IMG/VR virus record: IMGVR_UViG_3300029234_000155
Source of the DNA: a virus
Lineage: Duplodnaviria > Heunggongvirae > Uroviricota > Caudoviricetes
Strand: one strand, 5' to 3'
DNA length: 4,459 nucleotides
In this document: piece after piece, positions 1 through 4,459 of the stretch
Layout of the letters: every line of letters starts with the position of its first letter
Position numbering within the stretch: position 1 is the stretch's first letter
Translations under genes and position numbers: made by a program
Notes under the pieces: model-generated
What the model saw: the letters and a program-made list of their open reading frames with translations, nothing else
What the model was told of the DNA's origin: nothing
Databases searched by the model: none

Positions 1-20
1 GCTTCCATCGGAAACGATGA

Positions 21-386
21 TCTGGCAGCCTGAGTTCACAGATAAAACACTCTCCAGGAAACCCGGGGCGGTTCAGTCAGCATTGCCATGGTAAGGGCGA
101 AGCCAGCACAGCGTGCAGAGGGTGTAAGGGTAAAGGGATTGTTCTGGATGAAAAAAGAACCCGGTTTCATGGCGTACCGGTATATAAGATTTGTGGGCGT
201 TGTAATGGAAACCGGTTTAGTCGTTTACCGACCACGCTGGCACGACGTCATGTCCAGAAGCTGGTACCAGACCTGACCGATTATCAGTGGTATAAGGGGT
301 ATGCGGACGTCATTGGTAAACTGGTAACAAAGTGCTGGCAGGAAGAAGCATACGCGGAAGCGCAATTGAGGAAGGTGACGAGATAA
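21..386 (+). CDS. quuQ: Phage late-gene antiterminator Q, C-terminal portion (lambda-Q-like zinc-finger domain); 5' part outside the window and reading frame interrupted near the window start
   Basis: The frame with codons starting at positions divisible by 3 is open from 21 to the TAA at 384-386. It translates to ...TACRGCKGKGIVLDEKRTRFHGVPVYKICGRCNGNRFSRLP...LVPDLT...AQLRKVTR, which matches the CxxC...CxxC zinc-binding domain and ...VTR terminus of lambda Q as I remember it. There is no ATG/GTG/TTG start in this frame inside the window, and an in-frame TGA sits at 18-20. The provided ORF track misses it because there is no start codon. Symbol by synteny with Qin, from memory. Confidence 0.65.
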   Translation, partial: SGSLSSQIKHSPGNPGRFSQHCHGKGEASTACRGCKGKGIVLDEKRTRFHGVPVYKICGRCNGNRFSRLPTTLARRHVQKLVPDLTDYQWYKGYADVIGKLVTKCWQEEAYAEAQLRKVTR

Positions 387-417
387 ATGATTTTTGCTGA
401 AGATGGCGACATGATGT

Positions 418-453
418 TTGCATTTTTCAAAAAATATGGATAAAATTTTTTCA
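418..453 (+). promoter_or_regulatory. pR'-like sigma70 late promoter with promoter-proximal pause element
   Basis: -35 TTGCAT (418-423), 17-bp spacer, -10 TAAAAT (441-446), then 6 nt to an A at 453 that begins AACGATGGG. Lambda pR' has the same geometry and the same initial transcribed sequence AACGATGGG, whose -10-like AACGAT induces the sigma70-dependent pause where Q loads (recalled from memory). It lies immediately downstream of the Q stop codon. Confidence 0.6.
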
Positions 454-491
454 ACGATGGGCTTTGTATACCCGACGTTAAGAAAAAGTAG

Positions 492-522
492 AAAACCCGC
501 TGATGAGCGGGTTTTGTGCTTT
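492..522 (+). terminator. tR'-like intrinsic terminator closing a short (about 65 nt) leader transcript from the late promoter
   Basis: Perfect 10-bp stem AAAACCCGCT (492-501) / AGCGGGTTTT (506-515) with 4-nt loop GATG, followed by GTGCTTT. Its position about 40 nt downstream of the predicted start is as expected for the terminator that Q-modified RNA polymerase reads through. Confidence 0.7.
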
Positions 523-807
523 AAATGGGGCAATGGTAATGTTGAATCTCATCCCGGGACTCATGTCTGTTAACTTATTATTTAGCTGGTGACTTGGTTA
601 TTTGCCTGATGTTTAAAATGTTTTCTTCCAGTACAATGTCCCTAAACACAATGAGTCTGCTTATTATATTATTAGCAGAGCTATTACGGCCAAAGTACAG
701 CATAAGCTTTTAAAGCCAATCAACCAGTCATCAAGACAGACGGGGTTATTCATAAAAACTCTCCATGTGTGATCCGATGGGGCCTGAAATTAAAGCTTTA
801 ATATAGC

Positions 808-1020
808 TCATGAAAGGTAAACATTGGCAGCTGAAGGGCCACGCAGACCATTTATCCGGCAAAATTCCACGCGTAATCCGGTGGTAATTTCTTCTGCATC
901 GCGGAGATTGAGCGCTGAAACATGAAGCTGGACATCGATACGACCATCGGATGGGGTGATAAGACCCTTGCCGCTTTTGCCGTCAAAGGTTTTGACAATT
1001 CCTGTCATTTTACGGGACAA
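808..1020 (-). CDS. cspF: Cold-shock-domain protein, CspF/CspH-type (70 aa)
   Basis: ORF translates to [70 protein letters not shown], with the conserved MSxKMTGxVK N-terminus and GPxAANV C-terminus of the CspA family. The start is TTG (plus-strand CAA at 1018-1020) with AAGGA 6 nt upstream; the first ATG is at codon 5. Symbol by synteny (divergent from cspB in the prophage). Confidence 0.85.
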
Positions 1021-1124
1021 AAAAATTCCTTAATACTGATAACTTGGCGCACTATACACACGTTCCTGAAGAAAGCTATAGTTTTTTGATGGGGTTGAAG
1101 ATGGCTGGATGTCTAAAATAAACA

Positions 1125-1161
1125 TTGCTTCATATGTTCAACTATGCGTTAATGATTGCGT
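1125..1161 (+). promoter_or_regulatory. cspB promoter (sigma70) with upstream AT-rich UP-like tract
   Basis: -35 TTGCTT (1125-1130), 17-bp spacer, -10 GTTAAT (1148-1153), predicted start about 1160-1161 just before CGGTTTGAAGAACAGAC. The arrangement parallels the cspA promoter (TTGCAT / CTTAAT / ACGGTTTGACGTACAGAC) as I recall it. AT-rich tract TCTAAAATAAACA lies upstream. Confidence 0.55.
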
Positions 1162-1320
1162 CGGTTTGAAGAACAGACGATATACGAAGTAGTTTACTAA
1201 AGCAGTTCTCATTTCAGGTGTTATTCACTTATTCCTTCTTTGAGTCTCTCCAATTAAGTACGAAGTCGTTTCTGTTATGCAAACCATTTATGCCGAAAGG
1301 CTCAAGTTAAGGAATGTAGA
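1161..1320 (+). promoter_or_regulatory. cspB 5' untranslated leader (about 160 nt) with cold-box-like element at its 5' end
   Basis: GGTTTGAAGAACAGAC (1163-1178) resembles the cspA cold box. The leader length of about 160 nt from the predicted start agrees with the roughly 161-nt cspB leader I recall from the literature. SD AAGGA at 1308-1312, 8 nt before the ATG. Confidence 0.5.
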
Positions 1321-1536
1321 ATGTCAAATAAAATGACTGGTTTAGTAAAATGGTTTAACGCTGATAAAGGTTTCGGCTTTATTTCTCCTGTTGATGGTAG
1401 TAAAGATGTGTTTGTGCATTTTTCTGCGATTCAGAATGATAATTATCGAACCTTATTTGAAGGTCAAAAGGTTACCTTCTCTATAGAGAGTGGTGCTAAA
1501 GGTCCTGCAGCAGCAAATGTCATCATTACTGATTAA
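1321..1536 (+). CDS. cspB: Cold-shock protein CspB (71 aa), CspA-family cold-shock-domain protein
   Basis: ORF translates to [71 protein letters not shown], with canonical RNP1-like KGFGFI and RNP2-like VFVHF motifs. ATG start with SD and long cold-shock-type leader upstream. Confidence 0.95.
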
Positions 1537-1817
1537 AATTCATCGCTCGTCTGTATACGATAACGAAGAAGGCTGATGCCTGAGTAGAGATACGGACAGA
1601 GTAGTGAATATTGGATCTCTTTAATAAAAAGTAAGGAGGTCCAATACATGAAACAATGGCTAGCATATTTGGCAAAATCTTAATCAGGAAAAGTATGCTA
1701 ACCATTGTGGTGAAGTGCAGGTTTGCTGCATGAATAGTTTTACAGCAGAAGCTAACTGCTGGCATGGCAAAACAAAGTGCGTAAGTGGATGACTCCCACA
1801 AAAAGCACCACAATCTC

Positions 1818-1843
1818 AAACCCGCTCAGGCGGGTTTTTTATT
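1818..1843 (+). terminator. Rho-independent terminator downstream of cspB (possibly also serving convergent ynfU)
   Basis: Stem AAACCCGC (1818-1825) / GCGGGTTT (1830-1837) with loop TCAG, followed by TTTATTAT, about 280 nt after the cspB stop. On the minus strand the same hairpin is preceded by an A-run and followed by only TTTGAG, so it is a weaker terminator in that direction. Confidence 0.75.
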
Positions 1844-1899
1844 ATCTGCTTTAAATATATTATTAAAATATAAAAAATACTTGTTACTAATAAAATCAA

Positions 1900-2070
1900 T
1901 CAGGCTACAGCTTTAAGATTTGTCTGGAATACTTTGTTGCAATGAGGGCAGATCAAAAGGGCACCTTTTTGTACTCTTGAAAAACTGTGTTCTGACTCTT
2001 GGGTGCAGTTTGGGCAGGAACATTTAACGAGATAATTACGGCGTGATTTTGAGTTTTTACGTTCTGACAT
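1900..2070 (-). CDS. ynfU: Small zinc-ribbon protein (56 aa), two CPxC motifs
   Basis: Minus-strand ORF MSERKNSKSRRNYLVKCSCPNCTQESEHSFSRVQKGALLICPHCNKVFQTNLKAVA. ATG is the plus-strand CAT at 2068-2070, with AGGA 7 nt upstream on the minus strand. The 73-aa form in the ORF track has an unsupported N-terminal extension. CSCPNC...CPHC is a zinc-ribbon signature. The 56-aa length matches the Qin small protein YnfU as I recall it. Confidence 0.7.
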   Translation of the reverse strand: MSERKNSKSRRNYLVKCSCPNCTQESEHSFSRVQKGALLICPHCNKVFQTNLKAVA

Positions 2071-2289
2071 AGGCTTTTCCTGTATAAATGGCCGTATACA
2101 GTACACTAAATATGAAAACATTTCTCGTATTATTATTTTATATATGACTTTCTTTCAAAATAATTACCCACATTTTTAATGTGTATGTTTTTTTAGCGCC
2201 GTTGAGAACAACGTGTGCTGTCAAAACTACCCCGTAGACTCCGATCTTTTCAAACATATTGCACCATCCGTGTACATCGGGGTGAGGAT

Positions 2290-2505
2290 ATGAAATCAAT
2301 GGATAAGTTAACAACAGGTGTTGCCTATGGCACATCGGCGGGTAATGCTGGTTTCTGGGCATTGCAGTTACTCGATAAAGTAACTCCGTCACAGTGGGCT
2401 GCAATCGGTGTGCTGGGTAGCCTGGTTTTTGGCCTGCTGACGTATCTGACAAATCTTTATTTCAAGATTAAAGAAGACAGGCGTAAGGCTGCGAGAGGAG
2501 AGTAA
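2290..2505 (+). CDS. essQ: Phage-21-type class II holin (pinholin), 71 aa, with dual-start motif (alternative start at 2299 gives the 68-aa form)
   Basis: [71 protein letters not shown]. Two TM segments, the first Gly/Ala-rich (SAR-like), and near-identity to phage 21 S21 as recalled. ATG at 2290 and 2299 (M-K-S-M) parallel the S21-71 antiholin / S21-68 holin pair. GAGGA at 2284-2288 is 10 nt before the second ATG. The GTG-initiated 96-aa extension in the ORF track is not supported. Confidence 0.9.
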
Positions 2506-2509
2506 TCCA

Positions 2510-2817
2510 ATGACTCAAGACTATGAACTGGTTGTGAAAGGAGTCCGTAATTTTGAGAATAAAGTTACGGTAACTGTAGCCTTACAGGACAAAGAACGCT
2601 TTGACGGTGAAATTTTTGACCTGGATGTCGCCATGGACCGTGTTGAAGGAGCTGCGCTGGAGTTTTATGAGGCAGCAGCCAGAAGGAGCGTCCGGCAAGT
2701 CTTCCTGGAAGTAGCAGAAAAATTGTCAGAAAAAGTTGAGTCTTATCTGCAGCATCAGTACTCCTTTAAGATTGAAAATCCTGCCAATAAGCACGAGCGT
2801 CCTCATCATAAATATCT

Positions 2818-2821
<4 letters not shown>
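2510..2821 (+). CDS. ydfR: Hypothetical protein of unknown function (DUF1327-type as I recall), 103 aa, soluble and acidic, embedded in the lysis cassette
   Basis: ORF MTQDYELVVKGVRNFENKVTVTVALQDKERFDGEIFDLDVAMDRVEGAALEFYEAAARRSVRQVFLEVAEKLSEKVESYLQHQYSFKIENPANKHERPHHKYL. AGGAG at 2496-2500 is 9 nt before the ATG. It starts 4 nt after the essQ stop, and its TGA stop overlaps the rrrQ ATG (ATGA at 2818-2821). No hydrophobic segment. Confidence 0.85.
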
Positions 2822-3845
<1,024 letters not shown>

Positions 3846-4027
3846 GGTAATATTAAATCGGAACATTTACATCGCGGAATGTAAAATTTAAATAAAAAGG
3901 ACTCTTCCATGAGCCAAAATTCCTGAAATCTTAAGGGTAAGATAAAAGGTCTTAATCAGAATGACACGTTTTATTAATAAATAAAGCTATTCTTTCATTG
4001 CTGTGTTTTTCTTTACAAAAGTAATCC

Positions 4028-4207
4028 TTGCTATGGGTGGTTAATCATGCGTTAATGGTGTTCTGGTTTGTTACAAATTTATCTGAAGCAGTCATTGTTA
4101 TAATTTTATTATTTGTACCTCTTGAGATTTCCTTGTTGGTTTTTCTCTCTGATATTTTTTTTCGGACCATTCTGCCCAAGGGCTAATTTCTTCAAAAGGT
4201 AATAATT
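4028..4207 (+). promoter_or_regulatory. cspI promoter and about 145-nt cold-shock-type 5' leader
   Basis: -35 TTGCTA (4028-4033), 17-bp spacer, -10 GTTAAT (4051-4056), predicted start about 4063 before TGGTTTG. This is the same GCGTTAATG...GGTTTG architecture as upstream of cspB in this window. The leader length of about 145 nt agrees with what I recall for cspI. AT-rich UP-like tract upstream; SD AAGG 8 nt before the ATG. Confidence 0.5.
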
Positions 4208-4399
4208 ATGTCTAACAAAATGACTGGTTTAGTGAAATGGTTTAACCCTGAAAAAGGTTTTGGTTTCATCACGCCGAAAGATGGCAGCAAAGATGTGTTT
4301 GTCCATTTCTCAGCAATTCAGAGCAACGATTTCAAAACATTAACTGAGAATCAGGAAGTTGAATTTGGTATTGAGAACGGACCTAAAGGTCCTGCCTAG
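4208..4399 (+). pseudogene. cspI: Cold-shock protein CspI gene, 3'-truncated (63 codons; last strand of the cold-shock domain missing) by IS2 insertion
   Basis: [63 protein letters not shown] stops at a TAG (4397-4399) directly after KGPA. The in-window paralog CspB continues AANVIITD after the equivalent KGPA, and CspI is about 70 aa as I recall. The TAG is the first three bases of the IS2-like terminal repeat. Confidence 0.85.
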
Positions 4400-4459
4400 A
4401 CTGGCCCCCTGAATCTCCAGACAACCAATATCACTTAAATAAGTGATAGTCTTAATACT
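4397..4459 (+). mobile_element. IS2 (IS3 family) left end: terminal inverted repeat and first about 63 bp, element continues beyond the window
   Basis: TAGACTGGCCCCCTGAATCTCCAGACAACCAATATCACTTAAATAAGTGATAGTCTTAATACT matches the IS2 left terminus as I remember it (TAGACTGGCCCCCTGAATCTCCAGACAACC...). It contains an internal 9-bp inverted repeat TATCACTTA / TAAGTGATA (4429-4448). It begins exactly where cspI loses homology to its paralog. Confidence 0.75.

What the first reader, a model, noticed from the sequence alone, without database searches (positions are those of the whole stretch)
418..522. Compact lambda-like Q-utilisation module with pause element and terminator intact
The -35/-10 geometry and the initial transcribed sequence AACGATGGG are preserved relative to lambda pR' as I recall it, followed within about 40 nt by a perfect 10-bp-stem terminator. 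Regulatory DNA this well preserved next to a possibly disrupted Q gene suggests recent inactivation, or that the module is still used, for example by a Q supplied in trans from another prophage.
Basis: partly seen in the sequence, partly recalled or inferred. Interest (0 to 1): 0.4.

Follow-up and report, generated by a model that had tools for sequence, protein, structure and literature searches.

The report
Qin prophage late promoter–pause–terminator cassette
This stretch is the ordinary late-gene switch (promoter, RNA-polymerase pause signal and terminator) of the widespread E. coli cryptic prophage Qin, left intact next to its activator gene Q, which an insertion sequence has recently broken.

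Summary
Window 418-522 has a -35 (TTGCAT), a 17-bp spacer, a -10 (TAAAAT), six bases, then AACGATGGG at 453-461, in the same register as lambda pR' (32/44 identities, the unique best match in the window). A 10-bp hairpin (492-515) with a T-tract follows 39 nt later.

The gene upstream is a lambda-family Q (PF03589; QuuQ/YdfT of prophage Qin). An IS3-family element cuts it at codon 148. Apart from its two IS ends, the window has no mismatches to K-12 MG1655 over 4321 nt, so the inactivation is recent.

The same module ends exactly at the terminator in sequenced phages (SfV, Ayreon, mEp460, Stx2c phages). Its -35, AACGAT and GGG are the best-conserved positions, and the hairpin is kept through compensatory changes.

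Published Term-seq data for K-12 show an RNA 3' end at window 519, which implies a 67-nt RNA if transcription starts at 453. The start site, the pause and the Q response are inferred, not shown.

The short promoter-to-terminator distance is normal for this Q family; lambda's 194 nt is the exception. Use of a Q supplied in trans is plausible only for QuuQ-type Q proteins and is untested.

This is an ordinary new member of a textbook system. A side observation: a conserved 5'-terminal RNA hairpin across lambda-family late leaders.

The parts
1..75 (+). Right end of an IS3-family insertion sequence. The last codons of its transposase end at 33, and the element ends at 75. It interrupts the Q gene.
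   Evidence: 74/75 identical to the end of an annotated IS3-family element in strain LC-1302-2020. K-12 similarity begins at window 76. The identical junction is present in two independent metagenome contigs.
78..386 (+). C-terminal 102 codons plus stop codon of the lambda-family antiterminator gene Q (quuQ/ydfT). The gene is truncated at codon 148 and has no start codon, so it is non-functional.
   Evidence: Frame-3 translation. Pfam PF03589, E = 6.5e-32. 100% identical to K-12 ydfT from nucleotide 443. Full-length QuuQ is 33% identical to lambda Q and matches PDB 7ubm.
418..423 (+). -35 element of the late promoter pR' (TTGCAT).
   Evidence: Same register as lambda TTGACT and identical to the annotated phi80 pR' -35 TTGCAT. 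Majority fraction 0.993 in 51 distinct relatives found through the Q protein alone.
424..440 (+). 17-bp spacer (TTTTCAAAAAATATGGA), the expected position of the Q-binding element.
   Evidence: The lambda QBE is a 13-bp site (PMC9388147), and qut lies partly between the -35 and -10 (PMC6266700). phi80 annotates its Q site immediately after the -35. The spacer is conserved at 0.95 within the QuuQ-type family and is identical in the SfV/Stx2c-type modules. It differs from lambda (ATTGAAT) and phi80 (TCGCGGA) at the corresponding bases. That Q binds here is an inference.
441..446 (+). -10 element (TAAAAT).
   Evidence: Relatives carry TAAGAT, TAGGAT or TATGAT and keep T1, A2 and T6.
453..461 (+). 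Inferred transcription start (A453) and sigma70-dependent pause element: the -10-like AACGAT at +1 to +6 plus the GGG discriminator-like sequence at +7 to +9.
   Evidence: 9/9 identical to lambda. The element is defined in PMC4005639. Conservation is 0.990 and 0.993 in the unbiased set. It is present at the same place after lambda-family Q genes of P22, SI5, Evi and SPN3UB. The start site was not verified experimentally.
453..479 (+). Predicted 5'-terminal RNA hairpin: AACG/CGUU (453-456 with 476-479) and UGGG/CCCG (458-461 with 471-474).
   Evidence: Fold. CGTT at 476-479 is a conserved island. An equivalent hairpin is predicted in 9 of 10 divergent lambda-family leaders, against 1.9 expected in shuffles. 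Its function is unknown.
492..522 (+). Intrinsic terminator tR': hairpin 492-515 (G+C core 496-501 / 506-511, loop GATG) and T-tract 512-522. An RNA 3' end was mapped at 519 in K-12.
   Evidence: Term-seq 3' end at NC_000913.3 1642356 (-) equals window 519 and is listed three times in a file covering three growth conditions (PMC7815308 Supplementary file 1). 54 of 59 distinct related leaders have a hairpin plus T-tract starting at +32 to +46, with compensatory stem variants. Phage similarity ends at 515. A terminator is annotated at the same place in SfV and Ayreon.
2290..3845 (+). Downstream late (lysis) genes that Q-modified polymerase would reach: holin essQ/essD 2290-2505, ydfR 2510-2821, lysozyme rrrQ 2818-3351, rzpQ 3348-3845.
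   Evidence: ORFs; K-12 annotation; all identical to K-12. Between the terminator and these genes lie cspF (808-1020, minus strand) and cspB (1321-1536, plus strand).

Best explanation
Window 418-522 is the late-gene regulatory cassette (pR' promoter with an embedded Q-binding region, a sigma70-dependent pause element, and the terminator tR') of a Qin-type lambdoid prophage. It belongs with the lambda-family antiterminator QuuQ/YdfT encoded immediately upstream.

Mechanism, by homology with lambda:
1. Sigma70 RNA polymerase initiates constitutively at A453.
2. Sigma region 2 re-binds the non-template AACGAT(GGG) of the initial transcribed region and holds the polymerase in a promoter-proximal pause.
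3. Without Q, the polymerase escapes the pause and terminates at the hairpin and U-tract. This releases an RNA of about 67 nt (453-519).
4. With a cognate Q, the protein binds the spacer DNA, loads onto the paused complex and makes it resistant to terminators. Transcription then continues through tR' and later terminators into cspB and the lysis genes essQ-ydfR-rrrQ-rzpQ.

In this window an IS3-family insertion at codon 148 has destroyed Q. The cassette is therefore locked in its terminating state unless a QuuQ-type Q is supplied by another prophage.

Shown here: the sequence elements and their geometry; homology and conservation; the family of the Q gene; the IS disruption and its recency; and an in vivo RNA 3' end at the terminator in K-12.

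Inferred: the start at 453, the pause, Q binding to the spacer, and antitermination.
For: - **Geometry and identity to lambda pR':** 23/35 identities upstream plus 9/9 in the motif, the unique best position in the window.
- **Pause element:** AACGAT at +1 to +6 plus GGG is the published lambda pause element (PMC4005639).
- **Cassette layout:** Q gene, pR', pause element, terminator and late genes, as defined in PMC9388147, all present in this order.
- **Q family:** PF03589, E = 2e-40 to lambda Q, and a match to PDB 7ubm.
- **Presence in sequenced phages:** the same Q-to-terminator module (86-96% identical) occurs in deposited phage genomes. Similarity stops at the terminator, which is annotated in SfV and Ayreon.
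- **Conservation without an imposed DNA pattern:** -35 0.993, AACGAT 0.990, GGG 0.993, leader 0.79, loop 0.60, downstream 0.54.
- **Terminator retained:** present in 54 of 59 distinct leaders, with double changes such as CCCGC/GCGGG to CTCGC/GCGAG or ACCGC/GCGGT.
- **Wider family:** lambda-family Q genes at 33-42% identity (P22, SI5, Evi, SPN3UB, YeP2, phi80) show the same promoter and pause layout, and all of these except SI5 also have a terminator 28-50 nt from the start. phi80's is annotated as pR' with a Q site.
- **In vivo 3' end:** Term-seq places a 3' end at window 519 in K-12.
- **Precedent:** pR' promoters are constitutively active and make short terminated RNAs in lambda, 21, phi80, 82 and P22 (PMC7547250).
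- **Q disruption:**
Against: - No 5'-end data for this site were found, so the start at 453 is unverified. The Term-seq 3' end could belong to a transcript coming from upstream through quuQ.
- Lambda's pause-site consensus T+14 N Y+16 G+17 (bioRxiv 10.1101/2022.01.24.477500) is not matched at that register. The window has GTAT there; TTTG lies at +11 to +14.
- Lambda's TTGACT next to the pause element (the lambda sequence is; its role as a sigma-region-4 site is from my own knowledge) is TTTTTT here.
- The -35 matches the TTGACA consensus at only 3-4 of 6 positions.
- The window and K-12 have only four T after the stem before a G, whereas relatives have 5-8, so termination may be incomplete. 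A second plus-strand 3' end at window 687 in one Term-seq sheet is compatible with some read-through.
- The RNET-seq supplements searched did not list a pause here.
Confidence: 0.85

Rival explanations
1. The hairpin at 492-515 serves mainly as the terminator of other transcripts: the upstream ydfU-quuQ operon reading rightward, and/or the convergent cspF transcript reading leftward (a bidirectional terminator). On this view the RNA 3' end seen in K-12 comes from those transcripts and not from a short pR' RNA. This does not exclude the cassette reading. It questions what the Term-seq signal proves.
For: - The hairpin is flanked by A4 on one side and T4 on the other, and the scan tool called it on the minus strand.
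- The A-tract is best developed in the relatives that carry cspF (Qin, Tritos, 2H10) and poorer in SfV, Ayreon and Stx2c phages, which lack cspF.
- The Term-seq 3' end is only 133 nt past the Q stop codon and is classed as 'orphan'.
- No TSS data were found.
Against: - No opposite-strand 3' end is listed near the hairpin in the curated Term-seq tables.
- The terminator keeps a constant distance from the pause element (start +32 to +46) in 54 of 59 distinct leaders, whatever lies downstream. It is present in phages without cspF.
- A terminator at this position is a defining part of Q cassettes.
Confidence: 0.2
2. The constitutively made 67-nt terminated RNA is itself a functional regulatory RNA, like StxS from Stx-phage pR' or IsrK from Gifsy-1. 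That would be why the module persists in a cryptic prophage even where Q is dead.
For: - The 3' end is listed three times in a Term-seq file covering three growth conditions, with scores comparable to the nearby hokD site.
- An Hfq RIL-seq node 'cspF.ydfT.IGR' exists.
- The RNA has a strong predicted structure, with a 5' hairpin and a terminator hairpin.
- StxS is a precedent, and its authors propose that antiterminated promoters are a source of sRNAs (PMC7547250).
Against: - The unpaired part of the leader (+28 to +39) is among the least conserved stretches.
- The RIL-seq-based predictor gave the intergenic node a very low sRNA score (0.0024), and that node is not strand-resolved.
- No Rfam family matches.
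- Module preservation in this window needs no selection to explain it, because the whole 4.3 kb is identical to K-12.
Confidence: 0.1
3. The resemblance is a decayed relic or chance: the promoter no longer fires and the elements have no present activity.
For: - Qin is a cryptic prophage.
- The -35 is weak (3-4 of 6), and the T-tract is shorter than in relatives.
- No TSS evidence was found.
Against: - The match to lambda is the unique maximum in the window, about 5 sd above the mean.
- The module differs from those of sequenced phages (SfV, Ayreon, mEp460) at only a few positions, and its -10 (TAAAAT) is closer to consensus than theirs.
- A plus-strand RNA 3' end is observed at the terminator in vivo.
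Confidence: 0.05

Closest known systems
Bacteriophage lambda pR' - qut (QBE plus sigma-dependent pause element) - tR', which produces the 194-nt '6S' RNA
   Same: - Q of the same protein family (PF03589) lies immediately upstream.
- -35, 17 bp, -10, 6 bp, then AACGATGGG at +1 to +9 in the same register (32/44 identities).
- An intrinsic terminator precedes the lysis genes.
- The mechanism is presumably the same: constitutive transcription, then pausing and termination in the absence of Q.
   Different: - The terminator lies at +40 to +67 rather than around +194.
- The spacer sequence where Q binds differs (TTTCAAA... against ATTGAAT...).
- There is no TTGACT next to the pause element and no TNYG at +14 to +17.
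- QuuQ carries an insertion of about 45 aa with two extra CxxCxGxG motifs in the zinc-ribbon 'arm'.
- Cold-shock genes, not orf-64, lie between the terminator and the holin.
Phage phi80 pR' (annotated -35, gp17/Q-binding site, -10 and terminator in JX871397)
   Same: - Lambda-family Q (36.5% identical to QuuQ).
- Identical -35 (TTGCAT).
- Similar 3' part of the spacer (AAAAACTGGA TAGATT against AAAATATGGA TAAAAT).
- Short leader, with the terminator about 50 nt from the start.
   Different: - The pause element is AACGCT, not AACGAT.
- The bases at the annotated Q site differ (TCGCGGA against TTTCAAA), which implies a different Q specificity.
Phage P22 gene 23 / late promoter, and the SfV, Ayreon, mEp460 and Stx2c-phage late cassettes
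   Same: - P22 has the lambda-type promoter and AACGATGG, with a terminator starting at +28.
- The SfV/Ayreon/mEp460/Stx2c-phage modules are 86-88% identical to this one from Q to the terminator, with an identical spacer.
   Different: - Those are deposited phage genomes with intact Q genes, whereas here Q is interrupted.
- Their T-tracts are longer (6-8 T).
- Their -10 is TAAGAT, not TAAAAT.
StxS, the Hfq-binding sRNA made from the terminated pR' transcript of Stx1/Stx2a phages (PMC7547250)
   Same: A short RNA produced constitutively between a lambdoid late promoter and its terminator, directly downstream of Q.
   Different: - StxS comes from a 258-nt transcript that is processed to 74 nt.
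- Hfq binding and targets are demonstrated for StxS, whereas no function is shown for the RNA here.
- Sequence similarity to StxS was not tested here.
Q cassettes of phages 21 (PF06530) and 82 (PF06323)
   Same: The same regulatory logic: Q, pR' with a pause element, a terminator and late genes.
   Different: These Q proteins are unrelated, with different QBE architecture and pause positions (PMC9388147). The window's Q fragment matches PF03589, the lambda family.

Membership tests
Lambda-family (PF03589) Q-dependent late regulatory cassette | A Q gene of the lambda family immediately upstream of the promoter | tested here: met
   The window 78-386 fragment hits PF03589 at E = 6.5e-32. Full-length K-12 QuuQ scores E = 3.6e-54, is 33% identical to lambda Q (E = 2e-40), and matches PDB 7ubm. 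In this window the gene is truncated at codon 148 by an IS, so the gene is present but not functional.
Lambda-family (PF03589) Q-dependent late regulatory cassette | A sigma70 promoter shortly downstream of Q with lambda-like geometry (-35, 17 bp, -10) | tested here: met
   TTGCAT, 17 bp, TAAAAT, beginning 31 nt after the Q stop codon. The same register is seen in lambda, P22 and phi80. Activity was not measured.
Lambda-family (PF03589) Q-dependent late regulatory cassette | A sigma-dependent pause element: a -10-like hexamer at +1 to +6 followed by a GGG discriminator-like sequence | tested here: met
   AACGATGGG at 453-461, 9/9 to lambda and at the same distance from the -10. The definition comes from PMC4005639. 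Conservation in relatives is 0.99.
Lambda-family (PF03589) Q-dependent late regulatory cassette | A Q-binding element in the spacer between the -35 and -10 | tested here: inconclusive
   The spacer is conserved within the QuuQ-type family (0.95; 17/17 identical to SfV/Stx2c-type). It differs from lambda and from the annotated phi80 site. The exact lambda QBE bases were not available in the held texts. Binding was not tested.
Lambda-family (PF03589) Q-dependent late regulatory cassette | The lambda pause-site consensus T+14 N+15 Y+16 G+17, which stabilises the scrunched paused complex | tested here: not met
   The window has GTAT at +14 to +17. TTTG occurs at +11 to +14, and SfV-type relatives have TATG at +15 to +18. 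This is an accessory feature of lambda and not a family-defining one. The pause position here may differ.
Lambda-family (PF03589) Q-dependent late regulatory cassette | A -35-like TTGACT immediately upstream of the pause element, for repositioned sigma region 4 | tested here: not met
   Lambda has TTGACT at -7 to -2. The window has TTTTTT, and relatives have TTTTCC or TTCTCC. That sigma region 4 is repositioned to this segment is described in PMC9388147. The role of the TTGACT sequence itself is from my own knowledge.
Lambda-family (PF03589) Q-dependent late regulatory cassette | An intrinsic terminator between the pause element and the late genes | tested here: met
   A hairpin plus T-tract at 492-522. 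An in vivo 3' end maps to window 519 in K-12. The terminator is retained, with compensatory changes, in 54 of 59 leaders.
Lambda-family (PF03589) Q-dependent late regulatory cassette | Late (lysis or structural) genes downstream in the same orientation | tested here: met
   Holin, ydfR, lysozyme rrrQ and rzpQ at 2290-3845 on the plus strand.
Lambda-family (PF03589) Q-dependent late regulatory cassette | Transcription starts at the first A of AACGAT, and Q-dependent read-through of the terminator occurs | not testable with these tools
   No 5'-end dataset that could be searched listed the site. Read-through requires in vitro or reporter experiments.
pR'-derived regulatory sRNA (StxS-like) | A stable short RNA from pR' that binds Hfq and pairs with targets | tested here: inconclusive
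   A 3' end consistent with a 67-nt RNA is observed. An Hfq RIL-seq node exists for the cspF-ydfT intergenic region, but it is not strand-resolved and scored very low as an sRNA. No Rfam family matches.

The most novel reading that the evidence does not exclude
The RNA encoded by the pause element (AACGAUGGG) is always sequestered in a 5'-terminal hairpin with +14 to +27 of the leader. The 3' arm differs in each lineage of lambda-family Q cassettes. This hairpin would be a selected, so far undescribed component of the cassette. [quoted passage not shown] The 67-nt RNA that Qin makes constitutively, even where Q is dead, would then be a stable RNA with a function of its own.
Probability: 0.2. 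Interest if true: 0.5.

Novelty: new member of a known kind. Interest (0 to 1): 0.2.

Why it matters
For phage and E. coli biology this mainly fills an annotation gap. The late promoter, pause site and terminator of the Qin prophage are present in about 30% of complete E. coli genomes, including K-12, but are not annotated in RefSeq. I found no description of them in the literature I could search. They account for an 'orphan' RNA 3' end in published K-12 Term-seq data.

The assignment also predicts which phages could switch on Qin's intact lysis genes in trans: those with a QuuQ-type Q, such as SfV, mEp460 and the Stx2c phages. Lambda is not expected to do so.

In the lineage that carries this window, an IS insertion has removed the resident activator.

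None of this is surprising to a specialist. The cassette is a textbook system and behaves, as far as can be seen, as expected.

Tried and rejected
1. **MAFFT alignment including lambda.** It introduced a spurious 10-nt gap. I replaced it with an ungapped comparison anchored on the motif.

2. **DNA-pattern scan of viral contigs.** It fixes much of the promoter, so conservation there is circular. I used it only for the leader and terminator, and measured promoter conservation on loci found through the Q protein. That unbiased set contains only close relatives (at least 94% protein identity), so I obtained wider diversity by tblastn against deposited phage genomes.

3. **Searches for an experimental 5' end.**
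   - Thomason 2015 is not held.
   - The Cappable-seq, SMRT-Cappable-seq and RNET-seq supplements have no entry near 1642422 or the older-coordinate equivalent. The stored files may be incomplete, so this is not evidence of absence.
   - Two further papers hold no supplements.

4. **Bidirectional-terminator idea.** No opposite-strand Term-seq 3' end is listed, so I kept this only as a sequence-based possibility.

5. **Rfam.** Nothing real at 418-522. The 'throat-1' hit (15.5 bits against a gathering score of 124) is noise.

6. **Source organism.** Neither IS junction is found in the species-representative genomes or contiguously in complete E. coli genomes. Identical contigs were found only in metagenome assemblies.

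7. **An early assumption that strain LC-1302-2020 (H1) carries the same IS/Q junction was wrong.** Its IS sits near codon 46, and its copy differs at 1 of 75 bases.

8. **ORFs overlapping the region** (418-573 plus strand, 51 aa; 225-533 minus strand, 102 aa). I judged these to be by-products of the mechanical ORF listing. They are not annotated in K-12, and the minus-strand one is antisense to Q.
Full report
**What is in the sequence**

The window is a 4.3-kb piece of a lambdoid prophage late region bounded by two insertion-sequence ends. From position 76 to 4396 it has no mismatches to the cryptic prophage Qin of E. coli K-12 MG1655.

The annotated K-12 gene order maps onto the window as follows:

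| Gene | Window coordinates | Strand |
|---|---|---|
| quuQ/ydfT, antiterminator Q (C-terminal part) | 78-386 | + |
| small ORF | 664-753 | - |
| cspF | 808-1020 | - |
| cspB | 1321-1536 | + |
| ynfU | 1900-2070 | - |
| holin | 2290-2505 | + |
| ydfR | 2510-2821 | + |
| lysozyme rrrQ | 2818-3351 | + |
| rzpQ | 3348-3845 | + |
| cspI | from 4208 | + |

Window 1-75 is the last 75 nt of an IS3-family element, 74/75 identical to an annotated copy. It is joined to nucleotide 443 (codon 148) of Q. Window 4397-4459 is the first 63 nt of another IS3-family element that truncates cspI.

**Check of the observation**

- TTGCAT at 418-423.
- A 17-bp spacer.
- TAAAAT at 441-446.
- TTTTTC, then AACGATGGG at 453-461.
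- The hairpin AAAACCCGCT-GATG-AGCGGGTTTT at 492-515, followed by GTGCTTT.

I fetched lambda itself. In the ungapped register, 23 of the 35 bases upstream of the motif and all 9 motif bases are identical. The lambda 35-mer averages 9.4 (sd 2.6) identities against all 8848 positions of the window, and this site is the single maximum. The 9-mer alone is not significant. The register, the flanks and the neighbouring gene carry the weight.

The 453-522 RNA folds at -29.7 kcal/mol, z = -6.6.

**Identity of the neighbouring gene**

The frame-3 product of 78-386 hits Pfam PF03589 (Antitermination protein Q) at E = 6.5e-32. Full-length K-12 QuuQ is 33% identical to lambda Q (E = 2e-40) and matches the lambda Q chains of PDB 7ubm.

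PF03589 is the lambda Q family. It is distinct from the Q21 and Q82 families (PMC9388147).

**What the elements are**

The literature defines the Q cassette as the Q gene, the pR' promoter, a sigma-dependent pause element, a terminator and the late genes (PMC9388147). In lambda the pause element is the -10-like AACGAT at +1 to +6, reinforced by a GGG discriminator-like sequence (PMC4005639). The pause occurs at +16/+17 (bioRxiv 10.1101/2022.01.24.477500). The window reproduces the nine bases and their distance from the -10 exactly.

**Comparative evidence**

The stretch from Q to the hairpin is 86-96% identical in the deposited genomes of phages SfV, Ayreon, mEp460, Tritos, 2H10 and SKA5, Salmonella phage 118970_sal3, and fifteen Stx2c-converting phages. 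In most of them similarity ends at window 515, the last base of the hairpin, so the module is a mosaic unit. SfV and Ayreon annotate a terminator there.

I then took 51 distinct relatives found through the Q protein alone, with no DNA pattern imposed. Majority-base fractions were as follows:

| Region | Majority fraction |
|---|---|
| -35 | 0.993 |
| spacer | 0.95 |
| -10 | 0.94 |
| AACGAT | 0.990 |
| GGG | 0.993 |
| leader | 0.79 |
| hairpin loop | 0.60 |
| DNA beyond the T-tract | 0.54 |

Of 59 distinct leaders, 54 have a hairpin plus T-tract starting at +32 to +46 (median +41). The stem is kept through double changes: CCCGC/GCGGG becomes CTCGC/GCGAG or ACCGC/GCGGT, with G-U intermediates.

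Lambda-family Q genes at only 33-42% identity show the same layout:
- P22 has AACGATGG with a terminator starting at +28.
- Evi, SPN3UB and YeP2 have terminators starting at +32 to +42.
- phi80 has its pR' annotated with a Q-binding site and a terminator starting about 47 nt from the start.

So a short leader is the rule in this family, and lambda's 194 nt is the exception.

**Experimental evidence from K-12**

The module maps to NC_000913.3 1642345-1642488 on the minus strand. Window 453 therefore corresponds to 1642422 (-).

The curated Term-seq table of Adams et al. (PMC7815308, Supplementary file 1) lists an 'orphan' RNA 3' end at 1642356 (-), with flanking sequence TACCCGACG...GGGTTTTGTGC|TTTAAATGGG. 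This is window 519, eight bases after the G+C stem. The coordinate occurs three times in a file that covers three growth conditions.

I could not find 5'-end data. The start site, and therefore the assignment of this 3' end to a pR' transcript and not to quuQ mRNA, remains an inference.

Late promoters of lambdoid phages are constitutively active and yield short terminated RNAs in lambda, 21, phi80, 82 and P22 (PMC7547250).

**Differences from lambda**

- Lambda's T+14 N Y+16 G+17 consensus for the scrunched paused complex is not matched in that register. The window has GTAT there, with TTTG at +11 to +14. The exact pause position may therefore differ.
- Lambda's TTGACT next to the pause element is TTTTTT here.
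- The bases just after the -35, where phi80 annotates its Q site (TCGCGGA) and lambda has ATTGAAT, are TTTCAAA here. This implies a Q specificity of its own.
- QuuQ also has an insertion of about 45 residues carrying two extra CxxCxGxG motifs inside the zinc-ribbon arm that contacts DNA in lambda Q.
- The window and K-12 have four T after the stem, where relatives have five to eight.

Q is broken by the IS at codon 148. The window is identical over all 4459 nt to two independent metagenome contigs, including the junction. A sibling contig shares the cspI::IS junction but has an intact Q. Together with zero substitutions relative to K-12 over 4321 nt, this shows the inactivation is real and recent. 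No selection is needed to explain why the module is intact.

On a Q supplied in trans:
- QuuQ-type modules occur in 2460 of 5426 complete E. coli genomes at 2913 places, so a minority of genomes carry two or more.
- The spacer is 17/17 identical between Qin-type and SfV/mEp460/Stx2c-type modules.
- Those phages' Q proteins are 93-94% identical to QuuQ.

Trans-activation by such a phage is therefore plausible and would drive the intact lysis genes. It is untested, and the rest of the source genome is unknown.

**Rival readings**

- The hairpin may also terminate the upstream operon or the convergent cspF transcript, since it has an A-tract and a T-tract. No opposite-strand 3' end is listed in the Term-seq tables.
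- The 67-nt RNA might be a regulatory RNA like StxS. An Hfq RIL-seq node for the cspF-ydfT intergenic region exists, but it scored very low as an sRNA and is not strand-resolved. The single-stranded part of the leader is poorly conserved.
- Chance or decay is excluded by the comparative data.

**Side observation**

The RNA fold of +1 to +32 pairs the 5'-terminal AACG(A)UGGG with +14 to +27. CGTT at 476-479 is a conserved island.

In 10 divergent lambda-family leader clusters:
- The reverse complement of +1 to +4 occurs at +14 to +25 in 9 (0.78 expected; never reached in 2000 shuffles).
- The minimum-free-energy fold pairs the 5' end in 9 of 10, against 1.9 (sd 1.2) expected when +10 to +32 is shuffled.
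- YeP2, whose element is AAGGAT, pairs it with UUCUU. It also retains CGTT, so a DNA-level explanation is not excluded.

The lineages share ancestry, so the shuffle test overstates independence. I found no description of this hairpin in the held literature.

**Verdict**

The finding is correct and well observed, but it describes a textbook regulatory cassette in its expected place. It is a new, unannotated member of a known kind, with low interest.

Noticed in passing
window 453-479; also L003 788-815 (lambda) and the P22, Evi, SPN3UB, YeP2 and SI5 loci (L221, L215, L219, L222, L212): The RNA encoded by the pause element (AACGAUGGG) is predicted to pair with +14 to +27 and form a 5'-terminal hairpin in 9 of 10 divergent lambda-family late leaders. 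Shuffles give 1.9 (sd 1.2). The 3' arms differ between lineages. CGTT at +20 to +27 is a conserved island. I did not find this described in the held literature.
   Followed up: partly
window 1-75 and 4397-4459: Both ends of the window are ends of IS3-family insertion sequences. One interrupts Q at codon 148. The other truncates cspI to a 63-aa product (...GPKGPA*). The whole window, including both junctions, is identical to the metagenome contigs L395 and L396. L394 has the cspI::IS junction but an intact Q, which suggests that cspI was hit first.
   Followed up: yes
window 657-687: The K-12 Term-seq data list a second plus-strand RNA 3' end at NC_000913.3 1642188 (-), which is window 687. It lies just after the A+T-rich hairpin ctgcttattatattattagcag (657-678) and is antisense to the 29-aa small ORF at 664-753. 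It could reflect read-through of tR' or a separate start.
   Followed up: no
L002 4559-5311 (K-12 quuQ); window 78-200 holds the distal part: QuuQ-type Q proteins carry an insertion of about 45 residues relative to lambda Q, with two extra CxxCxGxG motifs. That makes four in all, and the region gives a DnaJ central-domain Pfam hit. The insertion lies inside the zinc-ribbon 'arm' that in lambda Q contacts the QBE and sigma region 4.
   Followed up: partly
window 1160-1552 and 4062-4453: Two matches to the Rfam cspA thermoregulator (RF01766; 158.8 and 113.6 bits) cover the 5' UTRs and coding regions of cspB and cspI. These cold-shock genes sit as 'morons' in the late operon.
   Followed up: no
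window 1241 and 1649-1651: The Term-seq data list further plus-strand 3' ends in K-12. One lies in the cspB 5' UTR (1641634 (-), window 1241). A very strong one lies about 113 nt past the cspB stop codon (1641226/1641224 (-), window 1649/1651), at a site with no obvious hairpin plus T-tract. The canonical-looking terminator is further on, at 1818-1837.
   Followed up: no
window 492-515 versus L004/L005/L006 2918-2950: The A-tract on the 5' side of the hairpin (GAAAACCCGC) is well developed only in relatives that carry the convergent cspF gene (Qin, Tritos, 2H10). This suggests a bidirectional terminator there. No opposite-strand 3' end is listed in the K-12 Term-seq tables.
   Followed up: partly
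L006 (Stx2c-converting phage Stx2c_PV98-693) 2059-2950, and 14 sibling records: Fifteen Stx2c-converting phages carry this same QuuQ-type Q-pR'-tR' module (87% DNA identity, 94% protein identity). The short terminated RNA of this type may therefore lie upstream of stx2c, as StxS lies upstream of stx1/stx2a in its phages. I did not examine what lies downstream in those records.
   Followed up: no
L392 and L393 (NCBI assemblies GCA_014599855.1, GCA_025608755.1): Related Qin-like prophages with the same lysis cassette and the same truncated cspI carry a different Q (PF06530, Q21 family, 125 aa). They also have different cargo genes (lipocalin, DUF1722, an AraC-type regulator) in place of quuQ-cspF-cspB. 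This looks like an exchange of the whole Q-plus-regulatory module.
   Followed up: no
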